Made by a program: the position numbers and the translations under genes. The notes beneath the pieces are model-generated. The model was given only the letters and a program-made list of their open reading frames with translations. It had not been told where the DNA came from and did not search any database. From Amoebidium appalachense (lineage: Eukaryota; Protista; Ichthyosporea): 19,761 nucleotides of DNA. The stretch lies in contig CAVNZM010000066.1 in assembly GCA_963693365.1 (NCBI GenBank), positions 1-19,761 of the forward strand. The letters run 5' to 3'. Of the stretch, positions 1-18,999 are shown piece after piece (position 1 is the first letter of the stretch; the number at the start of each line of letters is the position of its first letter).

Positions 1-104
1 CCGGCCTGCAAGACACAGCCGCAGGAGCACTCACAGACTACCTAGGTACTTTGGTGGCCGGCCCTGCCAGCCAGCCCGCACGAAAGAAGCGCCGACGTCG
101 CTAA
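1..104 (+). CDS. pol: C-terminal fragment of Pol (after chromodomain core, ending RKKRRRR*) of the upstream copy; runs off the window start
   Basis: Same sequence as 18234-18337; stop TAA at 102-104. Confidence 0.9.
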   Translation, partial: GLQDTAAGALTDYLGTLVAGPASQPARKKRRRR

Positions 105-155
105 CTTCCCTCAGCCTGGTGGTTTACCGTCTCCAGACCATACCACCAGGCTCCC

Positions 156-169
156 GAGAAGGGGGGGAG
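156..169 (+). other. Polypurine tract (plus-strand primer) of the upstream copy
   Basis: GAGAAGGGGGGGAG immediately 5' of the LTR start TGTAAACA at 170. Confidence 0.92.
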
Positions 170-779
170 TGTAAACATCTGTACACGCCGTACATGTTTA
201 CTATTACGAATATACTGTACATATCATAGTGATCACGTAGATATTGTGTACATATGATCAGATCAATATCACACGCGACAGCCGCGGGCTGCGGCTCACG
301 ACTGAGCCGCGGCGCCGGCAATATGCAGTGGCCGTGCAGTCAGTATGAACCAATAGAATTCGAGAACCGCTAGGATAGGAATGCAAGTCTCATCCACTAC
401 GGAGGCGACATCTATAGCTAAACGAACGGAACCAATAAGGAAATCAGACCCAGTTGCATAAACCTAAACGGGCTTAAGTATTGACCAATCATTTGCCACA
501 AAGTTATCCTTTTAGTTAGCTTCATGTTATTGGTGCACTGTGTGCACATAAAGACGACCGCACTCTTCTGACTGGTCAGAAGTCACGAAGGCATCAATGC
601 CACCCATCCAGATGATCCGGAACCTGGGGGCTATATAAACAAGCCGTCCCAGTACGGGGGATCACTCTGAACGAGCACATTAAATAGTAACCTGGCCGCG
701 TGTGCCTTACTACCCGTTCTCTGTCTTTATTCTGATTCAGTTGTTCTCTGCCTTATCCCAACTAGTTCAACTGTTTACA
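170..779 (+). repeat. LTR A (610 bp, complete)
   Basis: Starts TGTAAACA and ends TGTTTACA (8-bp terminal inverted repeat, TG...CA). Directly repeated at 780 and 18403. Confidence 0.97.
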
Positions 780-1388
780 GTAAACATCTGTACACGCCGT
801 ACATGTTTACTATTACGAATATACTGTACATATCATAGTGATCACGTAGATATTGTGTACATATGATCAGATCAATATCACACGCGACAGCCGCGGGCTG
901 CGGCTCACGACTGAGCCGCGGCGCCGGCAATATGCAGTGGCCGTGCAGTCAGTATGAACCAATAGAATTCGAGAACCGCTAGGATAGGAATGCAAGTCTC
1001 ATCCACTACGGAGGCGACATCTATAGCTAAACGAACGGAACCAATAAGGAAATCAGACCCAGTTGCATAAACCTAAACGGGCTTAAGTATTGACCAATCA
1101 TTTGCCACAAAGTTATCCTTTTAGTTAGCTTCATGTTATTGGTGCACTGTGTGCACATAAAGACGACCGCACTCTTCTGACTGGTCAGAAGTCACGAAGG
1201 CATCAATGCCACCCATCCAGATGATCCGGAACCTGGGGGCTATATAAACAAGCCGTCCCAGTACGGGGGATCACTCTGAACGAGCACATTAAATAGTAAC
1301 CTGGCCGCGTGTGCCTTACTACCCGTTCTCTGTCTTTATTCTGATTCAGTTGTTCTCTGCCTTATCCCAACTAGTTCAACTGTTTACA
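780..1388 (+). repeat. LTR B (609 bp, lacks the first T); 5' LTR of the main element
   Basis: Copy of 171-779 at offset 609; ends TGTTTACA and is followed by the PBS. Confidence 0.97.
959..1277 (+). promoter_or_regulatory. LTR RNA polymerase II promoter: CCAAT boxes, TATA box, initiator-like element
   Basis: CCAAT at 959, 1041 and 1094, ATTGG at 1138, TATATAAA at 1241-1248. TCACTCT (fits YYANWYY) at 1271-1277 is 30 bp after the TATA start. The same motifs occur in the other two LTRs. Confidence 0.7.
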
Positions 1389-1389
1389 T

Positions 1390-1403
1390 TGGCGACCGCG
1401 CAG
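1390..1403 (+). other. Primer-binding site, probably tRNA-Arg (UCG-type)
   Basis: TGGCGACCGCG(CAG) lies 1 nt after the LTR end. It is complementary to ...CGCGGUCG-CCA, the 3' end of eukaryotic tRNA-Arg(UCG) as I recall it. TGGCGACC PBSs are known from 412/mdg1-type gypsy elements. Confidence 0.82.
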
Positions 1404-1440
1404 TTCCAGAATCTCACATCTTTCAAGAATCTCTTCAACC

Positions 1441-3440
1441 ATGGCGGGCGAATTTGACGACTACCCTGTACTCTCGGACAATGAAAGCAAACTGACACGT
1501 GACACCAAGAAGCCTACCGCAGTCAAACCGCCGCCCCCAACGCAGAAGAAAGCCAAGACTCCGGGGCAGGGCACGAAAACACTCCCCACCCCCTCCCCCT
1601 ACACAGCCTCGTGCTCCCCAGAAACCGAACACGATCACAAAACCCAACACACACACGAACACAAAGGCAACTACGAAGCCCACTGGCAACGAACAAACGA
1701 AGCCCAACGAAAGCACGAAACCCAAAGACAAAACGAAGCGCAACGAACACACGAAAACCAACGAACATACGAACACCAACGAACACACGAACACCAACAA
1801 ACACACGAACGAACTTCAAGTAGCAACGAAGGAAAAAACGAAACAAGACCGGGACACTGCCACAGCTCTGGCAGAGGTGCGGGGCCGTGTTCTCTCCAAG
1901 TTCTATCGTATTGAAACTCTGAGACGTGCCATTCAAACTGCAACCGATGCTGGGCGGCCTGTGATGGACCTCGAAGCTGATGTCGCGCAGATTTACAGTG
2001 AGATTTCGCAGATGGAAGACACCACACTGTCTAGAATGTTGTGCACGTCCGCGAAATGGTCTGAGTTGGAGCGGGAAGCACAGTTGGTGGCTGAGGCACG
2101 AGTGAAAAATACGACGGTGCCCACCACCCCCCGTCCTCCCCCACCCACCACAGGCAAGAAGCCTTTGTCCCCGGTCCCATCTGGGTGCACTGATCCCAAG
2201 GTAATTGCACCTCCCGCACCCCCCACTAAATTTACATATAAGGATGTGCTTGCGCGCACACTCAGCTACACTGATTCTGATGCTGAAAATGAAGAAAAAC
2301 ACGAACAAAGTTACGAAGACACACCCACAAACGAAAACGAACACATGACTGCGAAAGTGCATGAAGAAGATCACTTCGACCAGCCTAAAGCACCCGTATT
2401 TAACGAAATCCCCCTTGCAGGATCCCCTCTGGCGTCTGCAGGTGGACTGGCAGGCACGCCAAGTCGCCCGAGAGGCTCTGATGTCAGCACAGGCTCAGGA
2501 GGTAAGGCTGGGTCTATATTGAACAAGCACTTTGCAGAGCACGAAAAACTGTGGTTGCACCCTCTCCGCCAGTTGCATGCATCCGAATACGGCCCCATCT
2601 TGGCTGCATTGAAACTACCAGAATACAAGGGTGACTTGCAGGATAAATGCACGGTGATTGAATGGCTGCACGAATTTTCCCAGCAGATGTTTTGCATTGC
2701 AGGGGTCCCCCCCACACTTGCTGTTCGCTGGGCGGTGCAGTGCTTTCCTCTTGCTTCCCCCGCCCGTGTGTGGTACACGAATTTTACCAGGACACAGGGA
2801 GAACTCACGTTTGATGCATTTGCACATGCACTAGTTACGAAATTTCACGACCAGCGTGTGCAAGAGGCACTCAGTGCCGAATTAAATGCACTCAAACAAG
2901 GCAAGCAAAAGGTGGCCGAATTTGCAAGCAGGCATGCGCGTTTGTGGGCACGTGTGTACCCCCTTAAGTCTGAGGCACACCAAATTTTGGATGTCTCACC
3001 GATTGGGTGGGGAAGACGAACAAGAATTTCGCAAATATCAACTCAGACAAACACGAAAAGAAGAAGAATTGACCCTGTCTGGAGTTGTTGCCTATCTCGC
3101 AGAAAAAGAAAGAGACAGGCACACACGAACCCCATCCACCATTCTAACACAGAAACCCCCCACAAAACAGCAACCCGGTGGTGGATCTGGTGCCAGCGAG
3201 AAGCCGTCTATTTTTTCGCGCATGGGCACCACCCCCTGCAACCGTGGGTGCAAGTACGGCAGCCACGCCGAAGGCAAGACGTGCCCGGCCCTCAAATTCG
3301 AATGCCACTCCTGCAAGCAGAAGGGGCACTTTGGGGGGTCACCAATTTGCCCCAAGTACGACCCCAACTTTAAGAAGGGAACCCGCAAGGCAGAGATTGA
3401 GGCTAATCGGGCCAAGTTCAAGAGAGCACGTGTAGAATAG
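1441..3440 (+). pseudogene. gag: gag (low-complexity N-terminus, retrotransposon capsid-like domain, double zinc knuckle), split over three frames by two +1 frame changes
   Basis: ATG in strong ACCATGG context at 1441 (frame of ORF 1441-1914). Capsid-like LPEYKG...IEWL...ARVWY...TFDAFAHALVTKF...LKQGKQKVAEFASR lies in the frame of ORF 1499-3373. Zinc knuckles CNRGC..H..CPA..CHSCKQKGH..C lie in the frame of ORF 2886-3440, which ends in TAG at 3438-3440. Confidence 0.85.
1655..1843 (+). repeat. Degenerate ~18-bp minisatellite (ACGAACACACGAACACCA-like) within the gag N-terminus
   Basis: Units such as ACGAACACACGAAAACCA / ACGAACATACGAACACCA / ACGAACACACGAACACCA encode TNEHTN-like repeats in the main gag frame. 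Confidence 0.85.
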
Positions 3441-3524
3441 GAAGGCGGGCAAGGGACTGGTCTCTCCCCAGTAGAACATAATGTATTTGATTTAATAGCA
3501 GAGCTGGAACTGTGTTCCCCTCTG
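3438..3524 (+). promoter_or_regulatory. Putative gag-pol UAG stop-codon readthrough signal (also at 8256 and 13253)
   Basis: A single TAG separates the gag end from pol in the same frame, and the frame is open from 3441 (GAA GGC GGG CAA...). A purine-rich spacer is followed by pairing segments GGGA/TCCC and ACTGG/CCAGT, then a hairpin at 3499-3524. Confidence 0.72.
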
Positions 3525-6500
3525 GCAGATAAATTGCAAAATAAATCTACTGGTGCGGAAATTTCTGTTGTCTCGGAGCCCTCCCACGAATCTGCATGTG
3601 CCCCACCCCCCCACGAACAGTTACCCCCGTGTACTGACCCCCCCATGCACACGCACACCCCGCCCCCGCGCAAAAAGAAAAATGTGCATTTTGCTGACCG
3701 TGTGCACTCCTCCATTGCAGAACCACGGCATGAAAATGCCACTGTGTGCACATTAACCCACGAAAATAAATGCACAGCCACACTTGCGCGAATGTATGTG
3801 CATGGGAAGCTAGTCACAGTAGTTGTCGACTCTGGTGCTAGCCATAGCTGTATAAGCACAGCATTTTACGAATCTCTCCCTGTAGTGGCAAGAAAACGAA
3901 TTCAGCATGTTCCTAATTTTAGTGTACTGGATGCACAAAGTAACGAAATGACATGCCAAGGAAGTATATCTCTCACTCTCGCCATTCCCAACGAATCTGC
4001 TCTAGTGGTGCACAGATGGCATGTGATTGATAATCTACCATATGATGCCTTATTAGGTGTTGATTTCATGGGGCCACAACAGGGACGAATTGATTACGGT
4101 GCTGCAGAACTTTCGTTCATGTATGCTAAGGGAAATCGCAGGTGCAGTATTCCGGTGTGGTGGTTGCGTGGGAGTGCGGAGGAGACAGCTGTTTCTCGCG
4201 TATTAATTACCACCACAGGTATTCACCTCCCGGTAGATGCGTCAAATATCGAAACGTGTAAAATAAAACCCGCTGCCGGCGCACCACCACCACGAACTTT
4301 AGACTGTTGTATGGGCACAGTGGTTCCATGTGGTCCACTTAATTCACGGGCTTACACAACAGCATGCAGTGTCACCAGTTTAGCTCGAATTTCGAATAAC
4401 GAACCCCCCCTCTCCACTAGCGAAGAAAGTGTGATCGAGGACGAATACGAATGCAAGGTGTTGTTGACTAACACATCGGACCATCATGTGTACCTAGGCC
4501 CTGGTACGGAGGTGGCCATGTTTATTCCCTTGCAATCAGATGACACTGTTACTCTTTTAGCACGTCCACACTCCGGTAATGGAACCAGGAGGGCGACAAC
4601 CCCACACCCTGGCCATCCATTAGGTACCTCTGCTAAAACGAACTTTTCTTCGCAGGAATCAACCGAAGAACCCACCGAACACGAACCACACACTTTCCAG
4701 GCGGCTACTAATATTAACGGTAGTATTAAGGTGTGTGAACGGAGTAAAATTATGAATATGAGTACGAAAGAGAACACCACACAGCGCAGTTCCACGAAAA
4801 TGAATGGTTTTGGTAATCCAGCACGAACAAAACCAGAGGTAGGGCCACCTACTATCGAAGCAGCAGATGGGGCACCATCTACCACTGCACTGGAGGATAC
4901 GAATAATTTACGAAAGCGTACGCACGAATGTACCTCCGACGGGGAAGCCGCCACAGACGACGACTTGCCTTTTGGGGTCAAACCTCCAGAAGAATACGAC
5001 ATGCCTGGAACTCCCCCAGACCAACGGAAACCGTTGGCGAAACGGATACGAAAACTGCTTAAGAAATGGAAGCATGTGTTCTCTGCACACGACAACGACT
5101 TTGGTTTGAGTACCTTAGACGAACTGTCGATCGAAGTAACTACCACCATACCACAGTACCGCAGGCCCTATAACATCCCACATCACCTTCGCGATAGCCT
5201 ACACAAACAAATTCAAAATTGGGTAGAGTTTGGAGTGATTGAGCCTGCGTCCAGCCCTTACTCCGCTCCGATGGTGTTGGTGGCGAAAAAGGACGGGTCT
5301 TTAAGAGTCTGCATTGATTTTAGAATGCTGAACTTGATTACGAAGAAAGACGGTTACCCTTTACCACGAATTGACATGGCTCTGGGTATGCTCAGAGGTG
5401 CCCGCGTGTTTTCCGCACTTGATTTAAACGGTGGTTACCACCAAGTCAAAGTAGCCGATAACGACAAAGAAAAACTTTCATTTACCACCCCCTGGGGGCA
5501 GTATCAATTCGCACGCGCACCTTTTGGAGTAAGTAACATGCCTGCTGTCTTTTCAAGGATGATGAAGCGTGTATTCGCTGGTATGCTGTGGACACATGTA
5601 CTCATATATCTCGATGACTTATTAGTTATGTCACCCACTATCGAAGAACATTTTGGGCATTTAGATTCATGTTTTTCCCGGCTCTGTGATGCAGGATTAA
5701 AACTGAAAGGCAGAAAATGCTCTTTGTTCATGGAAGAAGTTGGCTATTTAGGCCATCGCGTATGCCCGGATGGTATTAAGGTAGACCCAGAAAAAGTGGC
5801 AGCAATAAAGAATAAAAGCTACCCACAAAATTTATCTGAGCTACGAAGTGACCTCGGGTTATTTTCATATTATCGAATATTTGTGGACGATTTCAGCCAT
5901 ACGGCTGAACCACTCACGCGAATGCTGGGCACCTCGAAGGAGGATTCAGAATTACTAAAACGAATTCACGCAAAAATGCCCCCCTCTACGAAACCCGCCA
6001 AACGCAACGGCAGCGCAAAACAACGAAAAGACGAAGCAAAAAATTTGCACGCCGATTCTGCAGCTATTTTGGCCACGAAAAAGAAAGCACAGAAAAATGC
6101 TGCATGGGTGTGGGGTACGGAACAGGAGAAAGCATACGATACCCTTAAGAATGCGTTAATTAATGCACCTGTGCTTGCTCACCCCGATTTCACCAAACCT
6201 TTTATTGTTGACTCAGATGCTTCACAGTATGCTCTGGGCGCAGTGATTTCGCAGGTAGGTGATGACGGCAAAGAACGACCCATAGCTTATGCTAGCAGAA
6301 CACTCTCTAAGAGTGAACGAAATTATGCGGCGAATAAAAGGGAAGCCTTAGGTGTGTATTGGGCTGTGTGCAAAGCATTTCGCGCTTACACCTATGGGGC
6401 TCCTTTCTTGTTACGAACCGACCACTCCAGCTTGACGCGCATTCTGTCTACCGGCGATGCACCGGAACCTGTTGTTGCAGGCTGGCAAATGGCGCTTTCC

Positions 6501-8258
6501 GCATACACATACGAAATTCAGCACAGGGCGGGCAAACACCACAGCAATGCTGATGGACTCTCTCGGCCATCTAAAGAAAATGCGCAACCAGGACCCGAAG
6601 ATACTGAGCTGACATACCCCTCACTGATCGGCACAGTCTCGGGCTCGTTCACGGTGTTTGCGGTAACACGCTCCGCCGCAGCGACAGCGCAGGCACAAGC
6701 TGCCACCCATCCACCCCCAGCTGAACCCACGAAACCTAATACCACGCCGCCAGAATTTATTCCCCCAAAAGCGGATGGACGAATGCCCACCTATGAACAG
6801 TATGTGTCAGCACAGAAGGCTGATAAACACATTGCGAAAGTCAGGGCCTACCTGGAAAAAGCACCGGGCTACGAATTATTTGGCAACGAAATCGCGATGG
6901 AAGCTAGTCGCTGCACCATAGACAATGACCTTGTGTATGTGTGGGTCCTAGAACAGCGTGGCCCCCGCAAACCCAGCAAGGAACCACGAATTTGGGTGCC
7001 GTCTACGCTTGTGCGCCTCGTTTTGGCCGCATGTCACGACGCCCCAACCGCAGGTCACCTCGACGCAGCACGCACCTTCCACCGTGTTACCCAGATAGCA
7101 TGGTGGCCACGTGTATGGCAAGACTCGGTGCAGTGGGTAACCACATGCAAAGCCTGTCAATACCGGAAGACACCCCGAATGCAAAAGAAACTACGAATTC
7201 ACGATGGTTTTATCCCCACCTATCCCTTTCAATACGTGTCTATGGACATTACTGAGATGCCTACGAAATCTGATCTCAGAGTTTCCCTGTTGGTGTTTCT
7301 CGACCTCTTCACTCGCTGGCCGGAAGTGATTTTATTTCACAAAACACCCACAGCCGAAGATGTGGCAAAGGCATTCGAAGACTCCATCTACTGCCGTCAC
7401 GGTCGTCCGGAATTTTTAGTATCAGACAACGGCGCGAATTTGGCAGCTATGTTGGTCACAGATGTCTGTCGAGTGTTGGCTACAAAACGAATTTTTGCAA
7501 GTCCCTACAGCCCCCAGACCAATGGTGCCGTAGAGCGATTCAATCGCACACTTAAGAATATTCTTGCCACTCTCGTGCAGGATAAACACCACGAATGGAT
7601 TGACTACTTACCGCAAGTACTGTTTTCCTACCGCACCGCCTACCACTCTTCCTTGGGGGACACGCCATTCTTCATGCTTTATGGCAGAGATCCGGTCGAG
7701 CCCCCCCGCCCCCCAATTGCGGCTTCATGTGGGATGGAGACGGAGGAATACCGTCGAGAACTACTGCAACGAGTGCAGTATGCCCGGCAAACAGTCACAC
7801 GAATTATGTCTGAAGCTGCCCGTCGTAGTAAAATCACGGCTAACAAAAATGCTCGTGAACCCACAGAACTCGAGGGTCTGGTGTTGAAAGCAGTCACAGA
7901 CTCCACCACCGACCACAGTCTACCCACGGCACTCAGACCTAAATGGGAAGGTCCGTATCGCGTCCTGCGGCGCGTTACCGACGCCCCCATGTCTTACGAA
8001 ATTCAGCGGGTTGGGTCAACGGACACCGTTCGAGCACACGCACGTCACTTGAAGCCGTATTTTCCCCGTGACGACGTTGATATGACGCCAGCCGACTCTG
8101 GTCCGCAAGATTCACCCACCCCCACCTTCGAAGTGGCAAAAATTATTGCCCACAAGTACGACTCGGCAACTGCCCAAGCCCTTTACAAAGTTCGTTGGAA
8201 AGGGTACACGGCTAAGAACGACACGCGGGCCAAGTTCAAGAGAGCACGTGTAGAATAG
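3441..8258 (+). CDS. pol: Pol polyprotein copy 1 (aspartic protease, RT, RNase H, integrase, truncated chromodomain fused to gag tail); ORF-track TTG start at 3534 is probably not the real start
   Basis: Protease VVDSGA (D at 3828) and LLGVDF. RT KKDGSLRVCIDFR, APFG and YLDD (5607-5618). RNase H DSDAS / REALG / TDH / NADGLSR. Integrase HHCC, SMD, SDNG, NGAVERFN and GPY. Ends ...WKGYTAKNDT-RAKFKRARVE*. Confidence 0.95.
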   Translation, partial: EGGQGTGLSPVEHNVFDLIAELELCSPLADKLQNKSTGAEISVVSEPSHESACAPPPHEQLPPCTDPPMHTHTPPPRKKKNVHFADRVHSSIAEPRHENATVCTLTHENKCTATLARMYVHGKLVTVVVDSGASHSCISTAFYESLPVVARKRIQHVPNFSVLDAQSNEMTCQGSISLTLAIPNESALVVHRWHVIDNLPYDALLGVDFMGPQQGRIDYGAAELSFMYAKGNRRCSIPVWWLRGSAEETAVSRVLITTTGIHLPVDASNIETCKIKPAAGAPPPRTLDCCMGTVVPCGPLNSRAYTTACSVTSLARISNNEPPLSTSEESVIEDEYECKVLLTNTSDHHVYLGPGTEVAMFIPLQSDDTVTLLARPHSGNGTRRATTPHPGHPLGTSAKTNFSSQESTEEPTEHEPHTFQAATNINGSIKVCERSKIMNMSTKENTTQRSSTKMNGFGNPARTKPEVGPPTIEAADGAPSTTALEDTNNLRKRTHECTSDGEAATDDDLPFGVKPPEEYDMPGTPPDQRKPLAKRIRKLLKKWKHVFSAHDNDFGLSTLDELSIEVTTTIPQYRRPYNIPHHLRDSLHKQIQNWVEFGVIEPASSPYSAPMVLVAKKDGSLRVCIDFRMLNLITKKDGYPLPRIDMALGMLRGARVFSALDLNGGYHQVKVADNDKEKLSFTTPWGQYQFARAPFGVSNMPAVFSRMMKRVFAGMLWTHVLIYLDDLLVMSPTIEEHFGHLDSCFSRLCDAGLKLKGRKCSLFMEEVGYLGHRVCPDGIKVDPEKVAAIKNKSYPQNLSELRSDLGLFSYYRIFVDDFSHTAEPLTRMLGTSKEDSELLKRIHAKMPPSTKPAKRNGSAKQRKDEAKNLHADSAAILATKKKAQKNAAWVWGTEQEKAYDTLKNALINAPVLAHPDFTKPFIVDSDASQYALGAVISQVGDDGKERPIAYASRTLSKSERNYAANKREALGVYWAVCKAFRAYTYGAPFLLRTDHSSLTRILSTGDAPEPVVAGWQMALSAYTYEIQHRAGKHHSNADGLSRPSKENAQPGPEDTELTYPSLIGTVSGSFTVFAVTRSAAATAQAQAATHPPPAEPTKPNTTPPEFIPPKADGRMPTYEQYVSAQKADKHIAKVRAYLEKAPGYELFGNEIAMEASRCTIDNDLVYVWVLEQRGPRKPSKEPRIWVPSTLVRLVLAACHDAPTAGHLDAARTFHRVTQIAWWPRVWQDSVQWVTTCKACQYRKTPRMQKKLRIHDGFIPTYPFQYVSMDITEMPTKSDLRVSLLVFLDLFTRWPEVILFHKTPTAEDVAKAFEDSIYCRHGRPEFLVSDNGANLAAMLVTDVCRVLATKRIFASPYSPQTNGAVERFNRTLKNILATLVQDKHHEWIDYLPQVLFSYRTAYHSSLGDTPFFMLYGRDPVEPPRPPIAASCGMETEEYRRELLQRVQYARQTVTRIMSEAARRSKITANKNAREPTELEGLVLKAVTDSTTDHSLPTALRPKWEGPYRVLRRVTDAPMSYEIQRVGSTDTVRAHARHLKPYFPRDDVDMTPADSGPQDSPTPTFEVAKIIAHKYDSATAQALYKVRWKGYTAKNDTRAKFKRARVE

Positions 8259-11200
8259 GAAGGCGGGCAAGGGACTGGTCTCTCCCCAGTAGAACATAAT
8301 GTATTTGATTTAATAGCAGAGCTGGAACTGTGTTCCCCTCTGGCAGATAAATTGCAAAATAAATCTACTGGTGCGGAAATTTCTGTTGTCTCGGAGCCCT
8401 CCCACGAATCTGCATGTGCCCCACCCCCCCACGAACAGTTACCCCCGTGTACTGACCCCCCCATGCACACGCACACCCCGCCCCCGCGCAAAAAGAAAAA
8501 TGTGCATTTTGCTGACCGTGTGCACTCCTCCATTGCAGAACCACGGCATGAAAATGCCACTGTGTGCACATTAACCCACGAAAATAAATGCACAGCCACA
8601 CTTGCGCGAATGTATGTGCATGGGAAGCTAGTCACAGTAGTTGTCGACTCTGGTGCTAGCCATAGCTGTATAAGCACAGCATTTTACGAATCTCTCCCTG
8701 TAGTGGCAAGAAAACGAATTCAGCATGTTCCTAATTTTAGTGTACTGGATGCACAAAGTAACGAAATGACATGCCAAGGAAGTATATCTCTCACTCTCGC
8801 CATTCCCAACGAATCTGCTCTAGTGGTGCACAGATGGCATGTGATTGATAATCTACCATATTTTTACGAATCTCTCCCTGTAGTGGCAAGAAAACGAATT
8901 CAGCATGTTCCTAATTTTAGTGTACTGGATGCACAAAGTAACGAAATGACATGCCAAGGAAGTATATCTCTCACTCTCGCCATTCCCAACGAATCTGCTC
9001 TAGTGGTGCACAGATGGCATGTGATTGATAATCTACCATATGATGCCTTATTAGGTGTTGATTTCATGGGGCCACAACAGGGACGAATTGATTACGGTGC
9101 TGCAGAACTTTCGTTCATGTATGCTAAGGGAAATCGCAGGTGCAGTATTCCGGTGTGGTGGTTGCGTGGGAGTGCGGAGGAGACAGCTGTTTCTCGCGTA
9201 TTAATTACCACCACAGGTATTCACCTCCCGGTAGATGCGTCAAATATCGAAACGTGTAAAATAAAACTCGCTGCCGGCGCACCACCACCACGAACTTTAG
9301 ACTGTTGTATGGGCACAGTGGTTCCATGTGGTCCACTTAATTCACGGGCTTACACAACAGCATGCAGTGTCACCAGTTTAGCTCGAATTTCGAATAACGA
9401 ACCCCCCCTCTCCACTAGCGAAGAAAGTGTGATCGAGGACGAATACGAATGCAAGGTGTTGTTGACTAACACATCGGACCATCATGTGTACCTAGGCCCT
9501 GGTACGGAGGTGGCCATGTTTATTCCCTTGCAATCAGATGACACTGTTACTCTTTTAGCACGTCCACACTCCGGTAATGGAACCAGGAGGGCGACAACCC
9601 CACACCCTGGCCATCCATTAGGTACCTCTGCTAAAACGAACTTTTCTTCGCAGGAATCAACCGAAGAACCCACCGAACACGAACCACACACTTTCCAGGC
9701 GGCTACTAATATTAACGGTAGTATTAAGGTGTGTGAACGGAGTAAAATTATGAATATGAGTACGAAAGAGAACACCACACAGCGCAGTTCCACGAAAATG
9801 AATGGTTTTGGTAATCCAGCACGAACAAAACCAGAGGTAGGGCCACCTACTATCGAAGCAGCAGATGGGGCACCATCTACCACTGCACTGGAGGATACGA
9901 ATAATTTACGAAAGCGTACGCACGAATGTACCTCCGACGGGGAAGCCGCCACAGACGACGACTTGCCTTTTGGGGTCAAACCTCCAGAAGAATACGACAT
10001 GCCTGGAACTCCCCCAGACCAACGGAAACCGTTGGCGAAACGGATACGAAAACTGCTTAAGAAATGGAAGCATGTGTTCTCTGCACACGACAACGACTTT
10101 GGTTTGAGTACCTTAGACGAACTGTCGATCGAAGTAACTACCACCATACCACAGTACCGCAGGCCCTATAACATCCCACATCACCTTCGCGATAGCCTAC
10201 ACAAACAAATTCAAAATTGGGTAGAGTTTGGAGTGATTGAGCCTGCGTCCAGCCCTTACTCCGCTCCGATGGTGTTGGTGGCGAAAAAGGACGGGTCTTT
10301 AAGAGTCTGCATTGATTTTAGAATGCTGAACTTGATTACGAAGAAAGACGGTTACCCTTTACCACGAATTGACATGGCTCTGGGTATGCTCAGAGGTGCC
10401 CGCGTGTTTTCCGCACTTGATTTAAACGGTGGTTACCACCAAGTCAAAGTAGCCGATAACGACAAAGAAAAACTTTCATTTACCACCCCCTGGGGGCAGT
10501 ATCAATTCGCACGCGCACCTTTTGGAGTAAGTAACATGCCTGCTGTCTTTTCAAGGATGATGAACCGTGTATTCGCTGGTATGCTGTGGACACATGTACT
10601 CATATATCTCGATGACTTATTAGTTATGTCACCCACTATCGAAGAACATTTTGGGCATTTAGATTCATGTTTTTCCCGGCTCTGTGATGCAGGATTAAAA
10701 CTGAAAGGCAGAAAATGCTCTTTGTTCATGGAAGAAGTTGGCTATTTAGGCCATCGCGTATGCCCGGATGGTATTAAGGTAGACCCAGAAAAAGTGGCAG
10801 CAATAAAGAATAAAAGCTACCCACAAAATTTATCTGAGCTACGAAGTGACCTCGGGTTATTTTCATATTATCGAATATTTGTGGACGATTTCAGCCATAC
10901 GGCTGAACCACTCACGCGAATGCTGGGCACCTCGAAGGAGGATTCAGAATTACTAAAACGAATTCACGCAAAAATGCCCCCCTCTACGAAACCCGCCAAA
11001 CGCAACGGCAGCGCAAAACAACGAAAAGACGAAGCAAAAAATTTGCACGCCGATTCTGCAGCTATTTTGGCCACGAAAAAGAAAGCACAGAAAAATGCTG
11101 CATGGGTGTGGGGTACGGAACAGGAGAAAGCATACGATACCCTTAAGAATGCGTTAATTAATGCACCTGTGCTTGCTCACCCCGATTTCACCAAACCTTT

Positions 11201-13255
11201 TATTGTTGACTCAGATGCTTCACAGTATGCTCTGGGCGCAGTGATTTCGCAGGTAGGTGATGACGGCAAAGAACGACCCATAGCTTATGCTAGCAGAACA
11301 CTCTCTAAGAGTGAACGAAATTATGCGGCGAATAAAAGGGAAGCCTTAGGTGTGTATTGGGCTGTGTGCAAAGCATTTCGCGCTTACACCTATGGGGCTC
11401 CTTTCTTGTTACGAACCGACCACTCCAGCTTGACGCGCATTCTGTCTACCGGCGATGCACCGGAACCTGTTGTTGCAGGCTGGCAAATGGCGCTTTCCGC
11501 ATACACATACGAAATTCAGCACAGGGCGGGCAAACACCACAGCAATGCTGATGGACTCTCTCGGCCATCTAAAGAAAATGCGCAACCAGGACCCGAAGAT
11601 ACTGAGCTGACATACCCCTCACTGATCGGCACAGTCTCGGGCTCGTTCACGGTGTTTGCGGTAACACGCTCCGCCGCAGCGACAGCGCAGGCACAAGCTG
11701 CCACCCATCCACCCCCAGCTGAACCCACGAAACCTAATACCACGCCGCCAGAATTTATTCCCCCAAAAGCGGATGGACGAATGCCCACCTATGAACAGTA
11801 TGTGTCAGCACAGAAGGCTGATAAACACATTGCGAAAGTCAGGGCCTACCTGGAAAAAGCACCGGGCTACGAATTATTTGGCAACGAAATCGCGATGGAA
11901 GCTAGTCGCTGCACCATAGACAATGACCTTGTGTATGTGTGGGTCCTAGAACAGCGTGGCCCCCGCAAACCCAGCAAGGAACCACGAATTTGGGTGCCGT
12001 CTACGCTTGTGCGCCTCGTTTTGGCCGCATGTCACGACGCCCCAACCGCAGGTCACCTCGACGCAGCACGCACCTTCCACCGTGTTACCCAGATAGCATG
12101 GTGGCCACGTGTATGGCAAGACTCGGTGCAGTGGGTAACCACATGCAAAGCCTGTCAATACCGGAAGACACCCCGAATGCAAAAGAAACTACGAATTCAC
12201 GATGGTTTTATCCCCACCTATCCCTTTCAATACGTGTCTATGGACATTACTGAGATGCCTACGAAATCTGATCTCAGAGTTTCCCTGTTGGTGTTTCTCG
12301 ACCTCTTCACTCGCTGGCCGGAAGTGATTTTATTTCACAAAACACCCACAGCCGAAGATGTGGCAAAGGCATTCGAAGACTCCATCTACTGCCGTCACGG
12401 TCGTCCGGAATTTTTAGTATCAGACAACGGCGCGAATTTGGCAGCTATGTTGGTCACAGATGTCTGTCGAGTGTTGGCTACAAAACGAATTTTTGCAAGT
12501 CCCTACAGCCCCCAGACCAATGGTGCCGTAGAGCGATTCAATCGCACACTTAAGAATATTCTTGCCACTCTCGTGCAGGATAAACACCACGAATGGATTG
12601 ACTACTTACCGCAAGTACTGTTTTCCTACCGCACCGCCTACCACTCTTCCTTGGGGGACACGCCATTCTTCATGCTTTATGGCAGAGATCCGGTCGAGCC
12701 CCCCGCCCCCCAATTGCGGCTTCATGTGGGATGGAGACGGAGGAATACCGTCGAGAACTACTGCAACGAGTGCAGTATGCCCGGCAAACAGTCACACGAA
12801 TTATGTCTGAAGCTGCCCGTCGTAGTAAAATCACGGCTAACAAAAATGCTCGTGAACCCACAGAACTCGAGGGTCTGGTGTTGAAAGCAGTCACAGACTC
12901 CACCACCGACCACAGTCTACCCACGGCACTCAGACCTAAATGGGAAGGTCCGTATCGCGTCCTGCGGCGCGTTACCGACGCCCCCATGTCTTACGAAATT
13001 CAGCGGGTTGGGTCAACGGACACCGTTCGAGCACACGCACGTCACTTGAAGCCGTATTTTCCCCGTGACGACGTTGATATGACGCCAGCCGACTCTGGTC
13101 CGCAAGATTCACCCACCCCCACCTTCGAAGTGGCAAAAATTATTGCCCACAAGTACGACTCGGCAACTGCCCAAGCCCTTTACAAAGTTCGTTGGAAAGG
13201 GTACACGGCTAAGAACGACACGCGGGCCAAGTTCAAGAGAGCACGTGTAGAATAG
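8259..13255 (+). pseudogene. pol: Pol polyprotein copy 2, with 60-aa protease duplication, 1-bp frameshift after the integrase core, and truncated chromodomain
   Basis: Same domains as copy 1. The C run at 12699-12704 has 6 C versus 7 in copies 1 and 3, splitting it into ORFs 8352-12884 and 12731-13255. Confidence 0.9.
8682..9041 (+). repeat. Exact 2 x 180-bp tandem duplication inside the protease of pol copy 2
   Basis: 8682-8861 = 8862-9041 (FYESLPVV...IDNLPY twice). Confidence 0.96.
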
Positions 13256-16200
13256 GAAGGCGGGCAAGGGACTGGTCTCTCCCCAGTAGAACATAATGTA
13301 TTTGATTTAATAGCAGAGCTGGAACTGTGTTCCCCTCTGGCAGATAAATTGCAAAATAAATCTACTGGTGCGGAAATTTCTGTTGTCTCGGAGCCCTCCC
13401 ACGAATCTGCATGTGCCCCACCCCCCCACGAACAGTTACCCCCGTGTACTGACCCCCCCATGCACACGCACACCCCGCCCCCGCGCAAAAAGAAAAATGT
13501 GCATTTTGCTGACCGTGTGCACTCCTCCATTGCAGAACCACGGCATGAAAATGCCACTGTGTGCACATTAACCCACGAAAATAAATGCACAGCCACACTT
13601 GCGCGAATGTATGTGCATGGGAAGCTAGTCACAGTAGTTGTCGACTCTGGTGCTAGCCATAGCTGTATAAGCACAGCATTTTACGAATCTCTCCCTGTAG
13701 TGGCAAGAAAACGAATTCAGCATGTTCCTAATTTTAGTGTACTGGATGCACAAAGTAACGAAATGACATGCCAAGGAAGTATATCTCTCACTCTCGCCAT
13801 TCCCAACGAATCTGCTCTAGTGGTGCACAGATGGCATGTGATTGATAATCTACCATATTTTTACGAATCTCTCCCTGTAGTGGCAAGAAAACGAATTCAG
13901 CATGTTCCTAATTTTAGTGTACTGGATGCACAAAGTAACGAAATGACATGCCAAGGAAGTATATCTCTCACTCTCGCCATTCCCAACGAATCTGCTCTAG
14001 TGGTGCACAGATGGCATGTGATTGATAATCTACCATATGATGCCTTATTAGGTGTTGATTTCATGGGGCCACAACAGGGACGAATTGATTACGGTGCTGC
14101 AGAACTTTCGTTCATGTATGCTAAGGGAAATCGCAGGTGCAGTATTCCGGTGTGGTGGTTGCGTGGGAGTGCGGAGGAGACAGCTGTTTCTCGCGTATTA
14201 ATTACCACCACAGGTATTCACCTCCCGGTAGATGCGTCAAATATCGAAACGTGTAAAATAAAACTCGCTGCCGGCGCACCACCACCACGAACTTTAGACT
14301 GTTGTATGGGCACAGTGGTTCCATGTGGTCCACTTAATTCACGGGCTTACACAACAGCATGCAGTGTCACCAGTTTAGCTCGAATTTCGAATAACGAACC
14401 CCCCCTCTCCACTAGCGAAGAAAGTGTGATCGAGGACGAATACGAATGCAAGGTGTTGTTGACTAACACATCGGACCATCATGTGTACCTAGGCCCTGGT
14501 ACGGAGGTGGCCATGTTTATTCCCTTGCAATCAGATGACACTGTTACTCTTTTAGCACGTCCACACTCCGGTAATGGAACCAGGAGGGCGACAACCCCAC
14601 ACCCTGGCCATCCATTAGGTACCTCTGCTAAAACGAACTTTTCTTCGCAGGAATCAACCGAAGAACCCACCGAACACGAACCACACACTTTCCAGGCGGC
14701 TACTAATATTAACGGTAGTATTAAGGTGTGTGAACGGAGTAAAATTATGAATATGAGTACGAAAGAGAACACCACACAGCGCAGTTCCACGAAAATGAAT
14801 GGTTTTGGTAATCCAGCACGAACAAAACCAGAGGTAGGGCCACCTACTATCGAAGCAGCAGATGGGGCACCATCTACCACTGCACTGGAGGATACGAATA
14901 ATTTACGAAAGCGTACGCACGAATGTACCTCCGACGGGGAAGCCGCCACAGACGACGACTTGCCTTTTGGGGTCAAACCTCCAGAAGAATACGACATGCC
15001 TGGAACTCCCCCAGACCAACGGAAACCGTTGGCGAAACGGATACGAAAACTGCTTAAGAAATGGAAGCATGTGTTCTCTGCACACGACAACGACTTTGGT
15101 TTGAGTACCTTAGACGAACTGTCGATCGAAGTAACTACCACCATACCACAGTACCGCAGGCCCTATAACATCCCACATCACCTTCGCGATAGCCTACACA
15201 AACAAATTCAAAATTGGGTAGAGTTTGGAGTGATTGAGCCTGCGTCCAGCCCTTACTCCGCTCCGATGGTGTTGGTGGCGAAAAAGGACGGGTCTTTAAG
15301 AGTCTGCATTGATTTTAGAATGCTGAACTTGATTACGAAGAAAGACGGTTACCCTTTACCACGAATTGACATGGCTCTGGGTATGCTCAGAGGTGCCCGC
15401 GTGTTTTCCGCACTTGATTTAAACGGTGGTTACCACCAAGTCAAAGTAGCCGATAACGACAAAGAAAAACTTTCATTTACCACCCCCTGGGGGCAGTATC
15501 AATTCGCACGCGCACCTTTTGGAGTAAGTAACATGCCTGCTGTCTTTTCAAGGATGATGAAGCGTGTATTCGCTGGTATGCTGTGGACACATGTACTCAT
15601 ATATCTCGATGACTTATTAGTTATGTCACCCACTATCGAAGAACATTTTGGGCATTTAGATTCATGTTTTTCCCGGCTCTGTGATGCAGGATTAAAACTG
15701 AAAGGCAGAAAATGCTCTTTGTTCATGGAAGAAGTTGGCTATTTAGGCCATCGCGTATGCCCGGATGGTATTAAGGTAGACCCAGAAAAAGTGGCAGCAA
15801 TAAAGAATAAAAGCTACCCACAAAATTTATCTGAGCTACGAAGTGACCTCGGGTTATTTTCATATTATCGAATATTTGTGGACGATTTCAGCCATACGGC
15901 TGAACCACTCACGCGAATGCTGGGCACCTCGAAGGAGGATTCAGAATTACTAAAACGAATTCACGCAAAAATGCCCCCCTCTACGAAACCCGCCAAACGC
16001 AACGGCAGCGCAAAACAACGAAAAGACGAAGCAAAAAATTTGCACGCCGATTCTGCAGCTATTTTGGCCACGAAAAAGAAAGCACAGAAAAATGCTGCAT
16101 GGGTGTGGGGTACGGAACAGGAGAAAGCATACGATACCCTTAAGAATGCGTTAATTAATGCACCTGTGCTTGCTCACCCCGATTTCACCAAACCTTTTAT

Positions 16201-18337
16201 TGTTGACTCAGATGCTTCACAGTATGCTCTGGGCGCAGTGATTTCGCAGGTAGGTGATGACGGCAAAGAACGACCCATAGCTTATGCTAGCAGAACACTC
16301 TCTAAGAGTGAACGAAATTATGCGGCGAATAAAAGGGAAGCCTTAGGTGTGTATTGGGCTGTGTGCAAAGCATTTCGCGCTTACACCTATGGGGCTCCTT
16401 TCTTGTTACGAACCGACCACTCCAGCTTGACGCGCATTCTGTCTACCGGCGATGCACCGGAACCTGTTGTTGCAGGCTGGCAAATGGCGCTTTCCGCATA
16501 CACATACGAAATTCAGCACAGGGCGGGCAAACACCACAGCAATGCTGATGGACTCTCTCGGCCATCTAAAGAAAATGCGCAACCAGGACCCGAAGATACT
16601 GAGCTGACATACCCCTCACTGATCGGCACAGTCTCGGGCTCGTCCACGGTGTTTGCGGTAACACGCTCCGCCGCAGCGACAGCGCAGGCACAAGCTGCCA
16701 CCCATCCACCCCCAGCTGAACCCACGAAACCTAATACCACGCCGCCAGAATTTATTCCCCCAAAAGCGGATGGACGAATGCCCACCTATGAACAGTATGT
16801 GTCAGCACAGAAGGCTGATAAACACATTGCGAAAGTCAGGGCCTACCTGGAAAAAGCACCGGGCTACGAATTATTTGGCAACGAAATCGCGATGGAAGCT
16901 AGTCGCTGCACCATAGACAATGACCTTGTGTATGTGTGGGTCCTAGAACAGCGTGGCCCCCGCAAACCCAGCAAGGAACCACGAATTTGGGTGCCGTCTA
17001 CGCTTGTGCGCCTCGTTTTGGCCGCATGTCACGACGCCCCAACCGCAGGTCACCTCGACGCAGCACGCACCTTCCACCGTGTTACCCAGATAGCATGGTG
17101 GCCACGTGTATGGCAAGACTCGGTGCAGTGGGTAACCACATGCAAAGCCTGTCAATACCGGAAGACACCCCGAATGCAAAAGAAACTACGAATTCACGAT
17201 GGTTTTATCCCCACCTATCCCTTTCAATACGTGTCTATGGACATTACTGAGATGCCTACGAAATCTGATCTCAGAGTTTCCCTGTTGGTGTTTCTCGACC
17301 TCTTCACTCGCTGGCCGGAAGTGATTTTATTTCACAAAACACCCACAGCCGAAGATGTGGCAAAGGCATTCGAAGACTCCATCTACTGCCGTCACGGTCG
17401 TCCGGAATTTTTAGTATCAGACAACGGCGCGAATTTGGCAGCTATGTTGGTCACAGATGTCTGTCGAGTGTTGGCTACAAAACGAATTTTTGCAAGTCCC
17501 TACAGCCCCCAGACCAATGGTGCCGTAGAGCGATTCAATCGCACACTTAAGAATATTCTTGCCACTCTCGTGCAGGATAAACACCACGAATGGATTGACT
17601 ACTTACCGCAAGTACTGTTTTCCTACCGCACCGCCTACCACTCTTCCTTGGGGGACACGCCATTCTTCATGCTTTATGGCAGAGATCCGGTCGAGCCCCC
17701 CCGCCCCCCAATTGCGGCTTCATGTGGGATGGAGACGGAGGAATACCGTCGAGAACTACTGCAACGAGTGCAGTATGCCCGGCAAACAGTCACACGAATT
17801 ATGTCTGAAGCTGCCCGTCGTAGTAAAATCACGGCTAACAAAAATGCTCGTGAACCCACAGAACTCGAGGGTCTGGTGTTGAAAGCAGTCACAGACTCCA
17901 CCACCGACCACAGTCTACCCACGGCACTCAGACCTAAATGGGAAGGTCCGTATCGCGTCCTGCGGCGCGTTACCGACGCCCCCATGTCTTACGAAATTCA
18001 GCGGGTTGGGTCAACGGACACCGTTCGAGCACACGCACGTCACTTGAAGCCGTATTTTCCCCGTGACGACGTTGATATGACGCCAGCCGACTCTGGTCCG
18101 CAAGATTCACCCACCCCCACCTTCGAAGTGGCAAAAATTATTGCCCACAAGTACGACTCGGCAACTGCCCAAGCCCTTTACAAAGTTCGTTGGAAAGGGT
18201 ACACGGCTAAGAACGACACCTGGGAACCTCACTCCGGCCTGCAAGACACAGCCGCAGGAGCACTCACAGACTACCTAGGTACTTTGGTGGCCGGCCCTGC
18301 CAGCCAGCCCGCACGAAAGAAGCGCCGACGTCGCTAA
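13256..18337 (+). CDS. pol: Pol polyprotein copy 3, with 60-aa protease duplication and complete chromodomain
   Basis: Uninterrupted ORF with all catalytic motifs. Ends FEVAKIIAHK...YKVRWKGYTAKNDTWEPHSGL...RKKRRRR*. Confidence 0.95.
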   Translation, partial: EGGQGTGLSPVEHNVFDLIAELELCSPLADKLQNKSTGAEISVVSEPSHESACAPPPHEQLPPCTDPPMHTHTPPPRKKKNVHFADRVHSSIAEPRHENATVCTLTHENKCTATLARMYVHGKLVTVVVDSGASHSCISTAFYESLPVVARKRIQHVPNFSVLDAQSNEMTCQGSISLTLAIPNESALVVHRWHVIDNLPYFYESLPVVARKRIQHVPNFSVLDAQSNEMTCQGSISLTLAIPNESALVVHRWHVIDNLPYDALLGVDFMGPQQGRIDYGAAELSFMYAKGNRRCSIPVWWLRGSAEETAVSRVLITTTGIHLPVDASNIETCKIKLAAGAPPPRTLDCCMGTVVPCGPLNSRAYTTACSVTSLARISNNEPPLSTSEESVIEDEYECKVLLTNTSDHHVYLGPGTEVAMFIPLQSDDTVTLLARPHSGNGTRRATTPHPGHPLGTSAKTNFSSQESTEEPTEHEPHTFQAATNINGSIKVCERSKIMNMSTKENTTQRSSTKMNGFGNPARTKPEVGPPTIEAADGAPSTTALEDTNNLRKRTHECTSDGEAATDDDLPFGVKPPEEYDMPGTPPDQRKPLAKRIRKLLKKWKHVFSAHDNDFGLSTLDELSIEVTTTIPQYRRPYNIPHHLRDSLHKQIQNWVEFGVIEPASSPYSAPMVLVAKKDGSLRVCIDFRMLNLITKKDGYPLPRIDMALGMLRGARVFSALDLNGGYHQVKVADNDKEKLSFTTPWGQYQFARAPFGVSNMPAVFSRMMKRVFAGMLWTHVLIYLDDLLVMSPTIEEHFGHLDSCFSRLCDAGLKLKGRKCSLFMEEVGYLGHRVCPDGIKVDPEKVAAIKNKSYPQNLSELRSDLGLFSYYRIFVDDFSHTAEPLTRMLGTSKEDSELLKRIHAKMPPSTKPAKRNGSAKQRKDEAKNLHADSAAILATKKKAQKNAAWVWGTEQEKAYDTLKNALINAPVLAHPDFTKPFIVDSDASQYALGAVISQVGDDGKERPIAYASRTLSKSERNYAANKREALGVYWAVCKAFRAYTYGAPFLLRTDHSSLTRILSTGDAPEPVVAGWQMALSAYTYEIQHRAGKHHSNADGLSRPSKENAQPGPEDTELTYPSLIGTVSGSSTVFAVTRSAAATAQAQAATHPPPAEPTKPNTTPPEFIPPKADGRMPTYEQYVSAQKADKHIAKVRAYLEKAPGYELFGNEIAMEASRCTIDNDLVYVWVLEQRGPRKPSKEPRIWVPSTLVRLVLAACHDAPTAGHLDAARTFHRVTQIAWWPRVWQDSVQWVTTCKACQYRKTPRMQKKLRIHDGFIPTYPFQYVSMDITEMPTKSDLRVSLLVFLDLFTRWPEVILFHKTPTAEDVAKAFEDSIYCRHGRPEFLVSDNGANLAAMLVTDVCRVLATKRIFASPYSPQTNGAVERFNRTLKNILATLVQDKHHEWIDYLPQVLFSYRTAYHSSLGDTPFFMLYGRDPVEPPRPPIAASCGMETEEYRRELLQRVQYARQTVTRIMSEAARRSKITANKNAREPTELEGLVLKAVTDSTTDHSLPTALRPKWEGPYRVLRRVTDAPMSYEIQRVGSTDTVRAHARHLKPYFPRDDVDMTPADSGPQDSPTPTFEVAKIIAHKYDSATAQALYKVRWKGYTAKNDTWEPHSGLQDTAAGALTDYLGTLVAGPASQPARKKRRRR
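13679..14038 (+). repeat. Exact 2 x 180-bp tandem duplication inside the protease of pol copy 3
   Basis: 13679-13858 = 13859-14038, with the same breakpoints as in copy 2. Confidence 0.96.
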
Positions 18338-18388: not shown

Positions 18389-18402
18389 GAGAAGGGGGGG
18401 AG
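18389..18402 (+). other. Polypurine tract of the main element
   Basis: GAGAAGGGGGGGAG abutting TGTAAACA at 18403. Confidence 0.92.
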
Positions 18403-18999
18403 TGTAAACATCTGTACACGCCGTACATGTTTACTATTACGAATATACTGTACATATCATAGTGATCACGTAGATATTGTGTACATATGATCAGATCAAT
18501 ATCACACGCGACAGCCGCGGGCTGCGGCTCACGACTGAGCCGCGGCGCCGGCAATATGCAGTGGCCGTGCAGTCAGTATGAACCAATAGAATTCGAGAAC
18601 CGCTAGGATAGGAATGCAAGTCTCATCCACTACGGAGGCGACATCTATAGCTAAACGAACGGAACCAATAAGGAAATCAGACCCAGTTGCATAAACCTAA
18701 ACGGGCTTAAGTATTGACCAATCATTTGCCACAAAGTTATCCTTTTAGTTAGCTTCATGTTATTGGTGCACTGTGTGCACATAAAGACGACCGCACTCTT
18801 CTGACTGGTCAGAAGTCACGAAGGCATCAATGCCACCCATCCAGATGATCCGGAACCTGGGGGCTATATAAACAAGCCGTCCCAGTACGGGGGATCACTC
18901 TGAACGAGCACATTAAATAGTAACCTGGCCGCGTGTGCCTTACTACCCGTTCTCTGTCTTTATTCTGATTCAGTTGTTCTCTGCCTTATCCCAACTAGT
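18403..18999 (+). repeat. LTR C (3' LTR), truncated by 13 bp at its 3' end
   Basis: Matches 170-766. The terminal TCAACTGTTTACA is absent and replaced by GTGTGTGTGAAG. Confidence 0.95.
18912..18917 (+). terminator. Probable polyadenylation signal ATTAAA in the LTR (also 679-684 and 1288-1293)
   Basis: Common variant hexamer just downstream of the predicted start site, followed by GT- and T-rich sequence (GTGTG...TTCTCTGTCTTTATTCT). Confidence 0.55.

What the first reader, a model, noticed from the sequence alone, without database searches (positions are those of the whole stretch)
3408..18337. One retroelement carrying three tandem pol genes, each chained in frame through its own gag-tail + UAG cassette (gag-pol-pol-pol)
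Seen: a single LTR-bounded element holds three near-identical pol copies. The repeat unit starts 30 nt upstream of the gag stop and ends inside the chromodomain. The junction is in frame, so pol 1 and pol 2 end in the gag peptide RAKFKRARVE-UAG followed in frame by the next pol. Inference: if the UAG is leaky, a ribosome finishing pol 1 meets the same recoding signal again. That would give a cascade of Gag, Gag-Pol, Gag-Pol-Pol and so on, up to ~5,600 codons if the frameshifts are discounted. Internal pol amplification that preserves the recoding site is not an architecture I recognise. An in-frame join has a 1-in-3 chance by accident, so selection is not shown.
Basis: partly seen in the sequence, partly recalled or inferred. 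Interest (0 to 1): 0.88.

Follow-up and report, generated by a model that had tools for sequence, protein, structure and literature searches.

The report
Jumbled jumping gene with triple pol
The sequence shows a jumping gene whose enzyme gene (pol) is repeated three times in a row, while public data show the same element with a single pol, so this is most likely a one-off local rearrangement (or possibly a sequencing artefact) and probably not a new way of making proteins.

Summary
The architecture is in the sequence: a Ty3/gypsy chromodomain element reading gag-UAG-pol-(gag tail-UAG-pol)x2, units 99.9% identical. Both pol-pol joints are the same joint, so one illegitimate join was copied; in-frame odds are 1 in 3. 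The locus has three more homology-poor joints: an LTR-LTR fusion lacking 1 nt, a 180-bp protease duplication in units 2 and 3, and a 3' LTR clipped by 13 nt. Unit 2 looks like a unit 3/unit 1 hybrid. All 6 public runs laid hold the ordinary single-pol end; the 4 laid over gag hold the same UAG and lack the gag breaks. None is shown to carry this locus and contigs drop rare forms, so reality is untested. As written, gag stops at 1914 and pol 2 at 12884; pol 1 and 2 lose the chromodomain end. Best reading: a dead-end array of end-joined element pieces, expanded by unequal exchange (0.55); artefact 0.33; a mobile multi-pol form with a readthrough cascade 0.07. The gag-stop-pol layout is known (MuLV, Tca2, Tj1).

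The parts
1..169 (+). 3' end of an upstream copy of the same element: pol tail (stop at 102-104) and polypurine tract
   Evidence: 1-170 identical to 18234-18403
170..779 (+). Complete LTR, TG...CA, 610 bp: 3' LTR of the upstream copy
780..1388 (+). 5' LTR of the multi-pol element, 609 bp; lacks the first T and is fused head-to-tail to the previous LTR with no target duplication between; TATA-like box at 1241
   Evidence: identical to 171-779; TATA position; such a joint is described for end-joined linear cDNA (PMC9324142 passages)
1390..1403 (+). Primer-binding-site-like TGG... sequence one base after the LTR; cognate tRNA not identified
   Evidence: sequence; no tRNA gene in the window
1441..3440 (+). 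gag, split over three frames by two frameshifts at short base runs near 1589 and 2991; capsid domain, two CCHC-like knuckles, ends RAKFKRARVE-UAG
   Evidence: Retrotrans_gag E 2.6e-9, Ty3_capsid E 8.4e-7; contigs of public runs lack both breaks (2991: 4 of 4 runs; 1589: 3 of 3 that cover it); knuckles read by eye from the translation
3438..3448 (+). gag UAG stop (preceded by GAA) and an 8-nt purine-rich spacer; candidate readthrough site
   Evidence: no other letter listed in 4 of 4 runs; no fold better than shuffles, z +0.83 to +1.71; no strict pseudoknot
3441..8224 (+). pol 1: protease (3777-4115), RT (5283-5762), RNase H (6111-6506), integrase (6996-7514), chromodomain cut before DTWEP's W
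8225..8258 (+). Joint 1: one extra G, then the last 30 nt of gag and UAG, in frame with pol 1
   Evidence: microhomology 0-1 nt
8226..13221 (+). Unit 2: gag tail + pol 2; matches unit 3 at its 5' markers (180-bp duplication, 9268) and unit 1 at 11647; frameshift near 12699, stop at 12882-12884
8682..9041 (+). 180-bp in-frame tandem duplication in the protease of pol 2 (blunt joint, 0 microhomology)
13222..13255 (+). Joint 2, identical to joint 1
13256..18337 (+). pol 3, open, 1693 codons, with the same 180-bp duplication (13679-14038) and the only whole chromodomain (18122-18259)
   Evidence: Chromo E 8.3e-10; best solved match MPP8 chromodomain, E 1.1e-9
18389..18402 (+). Polypurine tract
18403..18999 (+). 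3' LTR, identical to the others but lacking its last 13 nt including the terminal CA
   Evidence: loose ends at 18999 in 4 of 4 runs continue with the full LTR end
19000..19761 (.). Right flank, 42% GC, starts with a GT run; its last 150 nt match another repeat

Best explanation
The window holds a Ty3/gypsy retrotransposon whose pol gene is present three times in tandem, most likely as a one-off, dead-end rearrangement in which broken pieces of the element's DNA were probably joined end to end and the pol unit then likely gained a further copy by unequal exchange. Shown: the family's ordinary form is LTR-gag-UAG-pol-LTR (about 8.2 kb); this locus has four kinds of joint with little or no microhomology (LTR-LTR minus 1 nt, chromodomain-G-gag tail, a blunt 180-bp duplication, LTR minus 13 nt to flank); the two pol-pol joints are identical; unit 2 carries unit 3's markers in its 5' part and unit 1's marker further on. 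Inferred: step 1, integrase-independent end joining of cDNA or broken chromosomal pieces made LTR-LTR-gag-pol-[gag tail-pol*]-LTR; step 2, one out-of-register homologous exchange between pol 1 and pol* made the third unit (an assembler overlapping reads out of register would give the same picture, so the count of three is soft). The join is in frame by a 1-in-3 chance. If the locus were transcribed and its frameshifts were read errors, leaky termination would give Gag-Pol-Pol at about r^2 and Gag-Pol-Pol-Pol at about r^3 (0.25% and 0.013% at MuLV's 5%): a by-product, not a selected design.
For: Identical joints and marker pattern. Microhomology 0-1 nt at the pol-pol joint and 0 at the duplication, so an overlap assembler had no homology with which to invent them. 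Non-integrase ends on both sides. Contigs of 4 of 4 runs join 8224 through 184 letters to the LTR, the single-pol form; contigs of 4 of 4 runs cross 18219 in the ordinary form; 6 distinct runs in all, of 24 listed. The change costs function: pol 1 and 2 lose the DTWEP end of the chromodomain, pol 2 and 3 carry a 60-residue repeat starting 12 residues after the protease DSG. In-frame odds 100 of 300 return points. Precedents: end-joined LTR-LTR joints with small indels (PMC9324142), multi-fragment capture including Ty cDNA at breaks (PMC11372161), tandem arrays from parts of retrotransposons (PMC3648361) and of whole ones (PMC11899658).
Against: No read or contig shows that any of the four joints exists in DNA; the locus itself is untested. 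The contigs are no proof of absence: they drop rare variants. Both the pol-pol joint and the 180-bp duplication keep the frame (1 in 9 by chance), which leans slightly towards selection. The window carries signs of imperfect sequence (3 indels at short base runs; 5 of 10 fixed substitutions next to CpG, P 0.0025, about 0.04 after 16 dinucleotides tried), so the markers that make unit 2 a hybrid may be noise; one marker (5567/10565/15562) does not fit the single-exchange model. The frameshifts that make the copy dead as written may be read errors. PBS, PPT, 5' U5 and 3' U3 are intact, so an RNA of this locus could in principle still be copied.
Confidence: 0.55

Rival explanations
1. Artefact: the joints arose in the library (ligation chimeras, rolling-circle or whole-genome amplification of extrachromosomal circles) or the assembler walked loops of a collapsed high-copy repeat, so no chromosome carries gag-pol-pol-pol.
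For: Units and LTRs are 99.9-100% identical; only the single-pol form was seen in 6 runs; error-like differences at base runs and beside CpG fit long-read consensus errors (homopolymer and methylation-motif errors: PMC6591954 passages, bacterial Dcm, not CpG); an LTR-LTR joint is typical of extrachromosomal circles (PMC9324142); near-identical double pols also occur in gene models of other assemblies (P0010, P0011, P0013: 99.6-99.9% over 694-1002 aa).
Against: The joints have 0-1 nt of microhomology, which overlap assembly and polymerase template switching do not readily make (established knowledge, recalled); four different blunt joints in 19 kb are many for chance ligation; the 180-bp duplication stays linked to the pol-pol joint in both units.
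Confidence: 0.33
2. Mobile multi-pol variant: reverse transcriptase jumped from the gag tail back to the chromodomain on a second RNA, adding one untemplated base; the longer RNA was packaged and copied, and ribosomes meet the UAG cassette up to three times, giving Gag, Gag-Pol, Gag-Pol-Pol and Gag-Pol-Pol-Pol.
For: Joint and duplication both in frame; the cassette keeps GAA-UAG and the purine spacer; PBS, PPT, U5 and U3 needed for copying are intact; three identical LTRs mean a very recent event. One-base untemplated addition at RT jumps is recalled, from no call.
Against: Neither end is an integrase end; only the last, rarest Pol has a whole chromodomain; gag and pol 2 are frameshifted as written; no such form among contigs of 6 runs (weak, contigs drop rare forms); no readthrough structure found.
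Confidence: 0.07
3. A 5-kb circle (gag tail-pol, closed at the joint) was excised or made from cDNA, replicated as a rolling circle and recombined back into a full element, adding two units at once.
For: Units 2 and 3 share the joint, the 180-bp duplication and the 9268/14265 marker; the LTR-LTR joint points to circular or end-joined DNA at this locus.
Against: Unit 2 matches unit 1, not unit 3, at 6649/11647/16644, which unequal exchange explains directly; no circle was observed.
Confidence: 0.05

Closest known systems
Ty3/gypsy elements with an in-frame stop between gag and pol: Tj1 of Schizosaccharomyces japonicus (PMC4600332, passages) and Tosmo1-3/Tcry1 (10.1101/2022.12.06.519325, passages)
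   Same: gag, in-frame stop, pol; GAA codon just before the stop; pol alone in its ORF
   Different: They use UGA-CU, here UAG-G; they have one pol; Tj1's need for the stop was tested, this one's was not
MuLV UAG readthrough and Candida Tca2 (PMC2194720, abstract and Background)
   Same: Stop followed by an 8-nt purine-rich spacer (here 7 of 8 purines); about 5% readthrough in MuLV
   Different: No pseudoknot found here; Tca2 shows that flanking sequence alone may not drive readthrough, so the mechanism cannot be assumed
Tandem LTR-retrotransposon arrays of plants (PMC11899658, first sixth of the text and passages)
   Same: Young gypsy copies in head-to-tail arrays, highly similar, hard to tell from assembly artefacts
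   Different: Those alternate whole internal regions with one shared LTR and keep target duplications; here the unit is LTR-free (gag tail-pol) and the left joint is two LTRs
CRM1TR/CRM4TR, tandem repeats from parts of maize centromeric retrotransposons (PMC3648361, abstract)
   Same: A piece of an element becomes a tandem monomer by illegitimate joining and is then multiplied by homology-based exchange
   Different: Monomers come from LTR/UTR, not from pol; many copies, millions of years old
End-joined cDNA: LTR-LTR junctions (PMC9324142, passages) and multi-fragment capture at double-strand breaks in yeast (PMC11372161, passages)
   Same: Joints with small indels and no homology; several pieces in one insertion
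   Different: Those are circles or short inserts seen in experiments; here 18 kb in an assembly, origin unseen

Membership tests
Ty3/gypsy (Metaviridae) LTR retrotransposon | pol order protease-RT-RNase H-integrase | tested here: met
   Pfam on pol 1 and pol 3; DSG, YLDD, HHCC, D-D-E and GPY motifs
Ty3/gypsy (Metaviridae) LTR retrotransposon | gag with capsid domain upstream of pol | tested here: met
   Retrotrans_gag E 2.6e-9; frameshifted in this copy
Ty3/gypsy (Metaviridae) LTR retrotransposon | TG...CA LTRs, PBS and PPT | tested here: met
   170-779 whole; PBS-like at 1390; PPT 18389-18402
Integrase-made insertion of the triple-pol unit | whole LTR termini at both ends with a target-site duplication | tested here: not met
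   5' LTR lacks its first base and abuts another LTR; 3' LTR lacks 13 nt; later damage to the ends cannot be excluded
Chromovirus branch | chromodomain at the integrase C-terminus | tested here: met
   Pfam Chromo E 8.3e-10; solved chromodomains E 1e-9; whole only in pol 3
Chromovirus branch | RT phylogeny inside the chromovirus clade | not tested
   No labelled reference set in hand; the 8 nearest proteins (50-55% identity, all with PF00385) are unnamed, named hits are animal gypsy proteins at 50% or less over partial cover
Programmed gag-pol stop readthrough (MuLV/Tj1 type) | in-frame stop fixed in the family, not a lesion or code change | tested here: met
   no other letter listed in 4 of 4 runs; no other in-frame TAG/TAA in 1693 codons
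Programmed gag-pol stop readthrough (MuLV/Tj1 type) | 3' stimulatory pseudoknot or stem | tested here: inconclusive
   4 of 4 stretches fold no better than shuffles; strict search none; one 4+5 bp candidate with a G-U pair among 16 loose ones
Programmed gag-pol stop readthrough (MuLV/Tj1 type) | measured readthrough product | not testable with these tools
   needs a reporter, ribosome profiling or proteomics
Tandem LTR-RT arrays sharing an internal LTR (PMC11899658) | one LTR between successive internal regions | tested here: not met
   no LTR between units 1, 2 and 3; two LTRs at the left joint

The most novel reading that the evidence does not exclude
A replication-born retrotransposon variant of about 18 kb with amplified pol, each copy behind its own UAG cassette, that is transcribed, decoded as a readthrough cascade (Gag, Gag-Pol, Gag-Pol-Pol, Gag-Pol-Pol-Pol) and still copied to new sites: a natural test of serial recoding and of particle size limits.
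Probability: 0.07. Interest if true: 0.75.

Novelty: new variant of a known kind. Interest (0 to 1): 0.22.

Why it matters
If the best reading holds it is a small case study: a young family throwing off end-joined arrays, the kind of seed from which retrotransposon-derived tandem repeats grow, with an LTR-free pol monomer that I did not find described. The more lasting by-product is the family: an unnamed chromodomain gypsy lineage with a fixed UAG between gag and pol. Only if the joint turned up at several integrase-made sites with a full-length RNA would it matter to recoding and retroelement specialists.

Tried and rejected
Own genome: none held, so no search for other joint copies. Runs: 24 listed, 20 holders, all Logan contigs, no raw reads, no RNA holder listed; 6 distinct runs were laid, 18 were not. 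No joint 8224->3408, 4043->3864 or 1388->780 was listed for X6, X12, X16, X4, and no joint-type loose end at 18219 among the 11 shown of 13; contigs drop rare forms, so this is not absence. The flank 19034-19600 had no cover in 4 of 4 runs and no LTR-flank joint was listed, so none of them is shown to carry this locus. Contig depth over pol against gag was near 1 (X6 318/290; X4 55-78/65), not 3, but the tool says depth is no copy number. X19 (RNA is a guess) holds the ordinary pol end; nothing follows on expression. Exact joint pattern: 0 hits in metagenome contigs and viral contigs; uninformative, since those collections gave no close relative (best 80 loci 24-41%; none). Those 80 loci held no near-identical tandem pol (6 of 80 had a second RT or IN; 1 of 80 a direct repeat of 1 kb or more, 86%; only 16 reach 10 kb) and were too distant to test the UAG. 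Longer proteins: 51 hits, none above 42% identity and none with a chromodomain family listed. A first self-comparison of double-pol proteins returned nothing through a script fault and was redone. Rejected: UAG reassignment; a stable stem or strict pseudoknot after the UAG; nested insertion (no inner LTRs). Earlier scan notes: nothing relevant. No supplements were read; supplements of PMC11899658 may list LTR-free internal tandems.
Full report
What is in the sequence. Self-alignment and unit-by-unit alignment give this map: the 3' end of an upstream copy (1-169), its LTR (170-779), a second identical LTR lacking the first T (780-1388), a PBS-like site, gag (1441-3440), then three pol units (3408-8224, 8226-13221, 13223-18219), the true pol end, a polypurine tract, a third identical LTR lacking its last 13 nt (18403-18999) and a flank. 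Pfam finds capsid, protease, RT, RNase H, integrase and chromodomain in Ty3/gypsy order. The two pol-pol joints are letter-identical; each cuts the chromodomain before the W of DTWEP and returns, after one extra G, to 30 nt before the gag UAG. Pol 1 is open to RAKFKRARVE-UAG and pol 2 follows in frame.

Units 2 and 3 share a 180-bp in-frame duplication inside the protease; unit 1 lacks it. Pol 2 is frameshifted near 12699 and stops at 12884. gag is frameshifted near 1589 and 2991, so the ORF from the first ATG ends after 157 codons. Neither end of the element is an integrase end. Microhomology is 0-1 nt at the pol-pol joint and 0 at the duplication.

Order of events. Identical joints mean one illegitimate join, then homology-based copying. 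Of four markers, three fit unit 2 being unit 3 in its 5' part (duplication, 4270) and unit 1 further on (6649); one (5567) is private to unit 2 and does not fit. That is the trace of one unequal exchange in a two-pol precursor, and equally of reads overlapped out of register. So the in-frame join counts once: 1 in 3 (100 of 300 return points), or 1 in 9 with the duplication.

The family elsewhere. No genome is held. 20 of 24 listed runs hold the element, all as contigs. In 4 of 4 runs laid on 780-8224, contigs go from 8224 through 184 letters into the LTR, with no other letter listed at the UAG and without the gag breaks where covered. In 4 of 4 runs laid on 17900-19761 (two of them new), contigs cross 18219 in the ordinary form. 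The family's standard form is thus gag-UAG-pol with one pol, about 8.2 kb. These runs say nothing certain on this locus: contigs drop rare variants and none is shown to hold it. The 8 nearest proteins (50-55%, unnamed, chromodomain, no gag family listed) are pol-only ORFs too.

Sequence quality. The window differs from the runs by 10 fixed substitutions and 2 indels over 780-8224; the indels lie at short base runs, and 5 of the 10 substitutions are next to CpG where 11% is expected (P 0.0025; about 0.04 after trying 16 dinucleotides; found post hoc). This hints at long-read consensus errors (PMC6591954, passages, reports homopolymer and Dcm-motif errors, not CpG), or at strain differences. It cuts both ways: the frameshifts may not be real, and the markers may be noise.

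The recoding site. The UAG is not a code change: pol 3 has 0 TAG/TAA and 53 CAR codons in 1693. GAA before the stop matches Tj1/Tosmo (10.1101/2022.12.06.519325, passages) and the 8-nt purine-rich spacer matches MuLV/Tca2 (PMC2194720, Background). No stem beat shuffles in 4 of 4 stretches and a strict pseudoknot search found none. Readthrough is likely for the family, unproven. At 5% per stop the second and third Pols would come at 0.25% and 0.013%, and only the third has a whole chromodomain, so the array removes function from the commonest product.

Mechanism. Best (0.55): a real, single, dead-end locus built by end joining of element pieces, then one unequal exchange. LTR-LTR joints with small indels are described as the mark of end-joined linear cDNA (PMC9324142, passages), multi-fragment capture at breaks is shown in yeast (PMC11372161, passages), and retrotransposon pieces are known to seed tandem repeats (PMC3648361, abstract; PMC11899658, first part and passages). 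Artefact (0.33) stays open because nothing here shows a molecule; the lack of microhomology argues against the assembler inventing the joints but not against library chimeras or a wrong unit count. A mobile multi-pol form (0.07) is not excluded, since the cis signals for copying are intact. Rolling-circle reinsertion 0.05.

Novelty. gag-stop-pol is known in gypsy elements (PMC4600332, passages). I found no paper on an LTR-free tandem pol that keeps the stop cassette in searches (listings only, except the papers named; the library lacks most subscription journals; no supplements read). Near-identical double pols do occur in gene models of other assemblies (3 of 8 examined, from 24 of 120 proteins with two RT or IN matches), reality unknown. 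Verdict: a new variant of a known kind, interest 0.22.

Noticed in passing
window 18922-18965 (same LTR stretch at 1298-1341): A 43-nt piece of the LTR lies under contigs of very high depth (23,558 in X19 against 40 for the rest of the LTR) whose loose ends lead into other sequence: probably shared with a more abundant related repeat.
   Followed up: no
window 1388 / 18999, loose ends: The same GC-rich sequence follows the full LTR end in X6 and X15, and its first two letters in X16: a shared insertion or a preferred multi-copy target.
   Followed up: no
window 19612-19761: The far end of the flank matches another repeat (contig depth 651 in X12).
   Followed up: no
window 1640-1830: Short imperfect repeats in the 5' part of gag, giving a His/Glu/Gln/Thr-rich low-complexity stretch.
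   Followed up: no
window 4116-5282 and 5940-6110: Long stretches without a Pfam match: about 390 residues between protease and RT, and a Lys/Ala-rich insert between RT and RNase H.
   Followed up: no
window 1944, 2101, 4252, 4270, 5567: Half of the fixed differences from public contigs sit next to CpG; may mark methylation-linked read errors or mutation bias.
   Followed up: partly
P0010, P0011, P0013: Annotated proteins of Cordylochernes, Brachyhypopomus and Trichinella with two pol copies 99.6-99.9% identical; tandem arrays or assembly/gene-model artefacts.
   Followed up: partly
L076:3717-6295 and 9173-11756: A 2.6-kb direct repeat at 86% identity in a distant gypsy locus.
   Followed up: no
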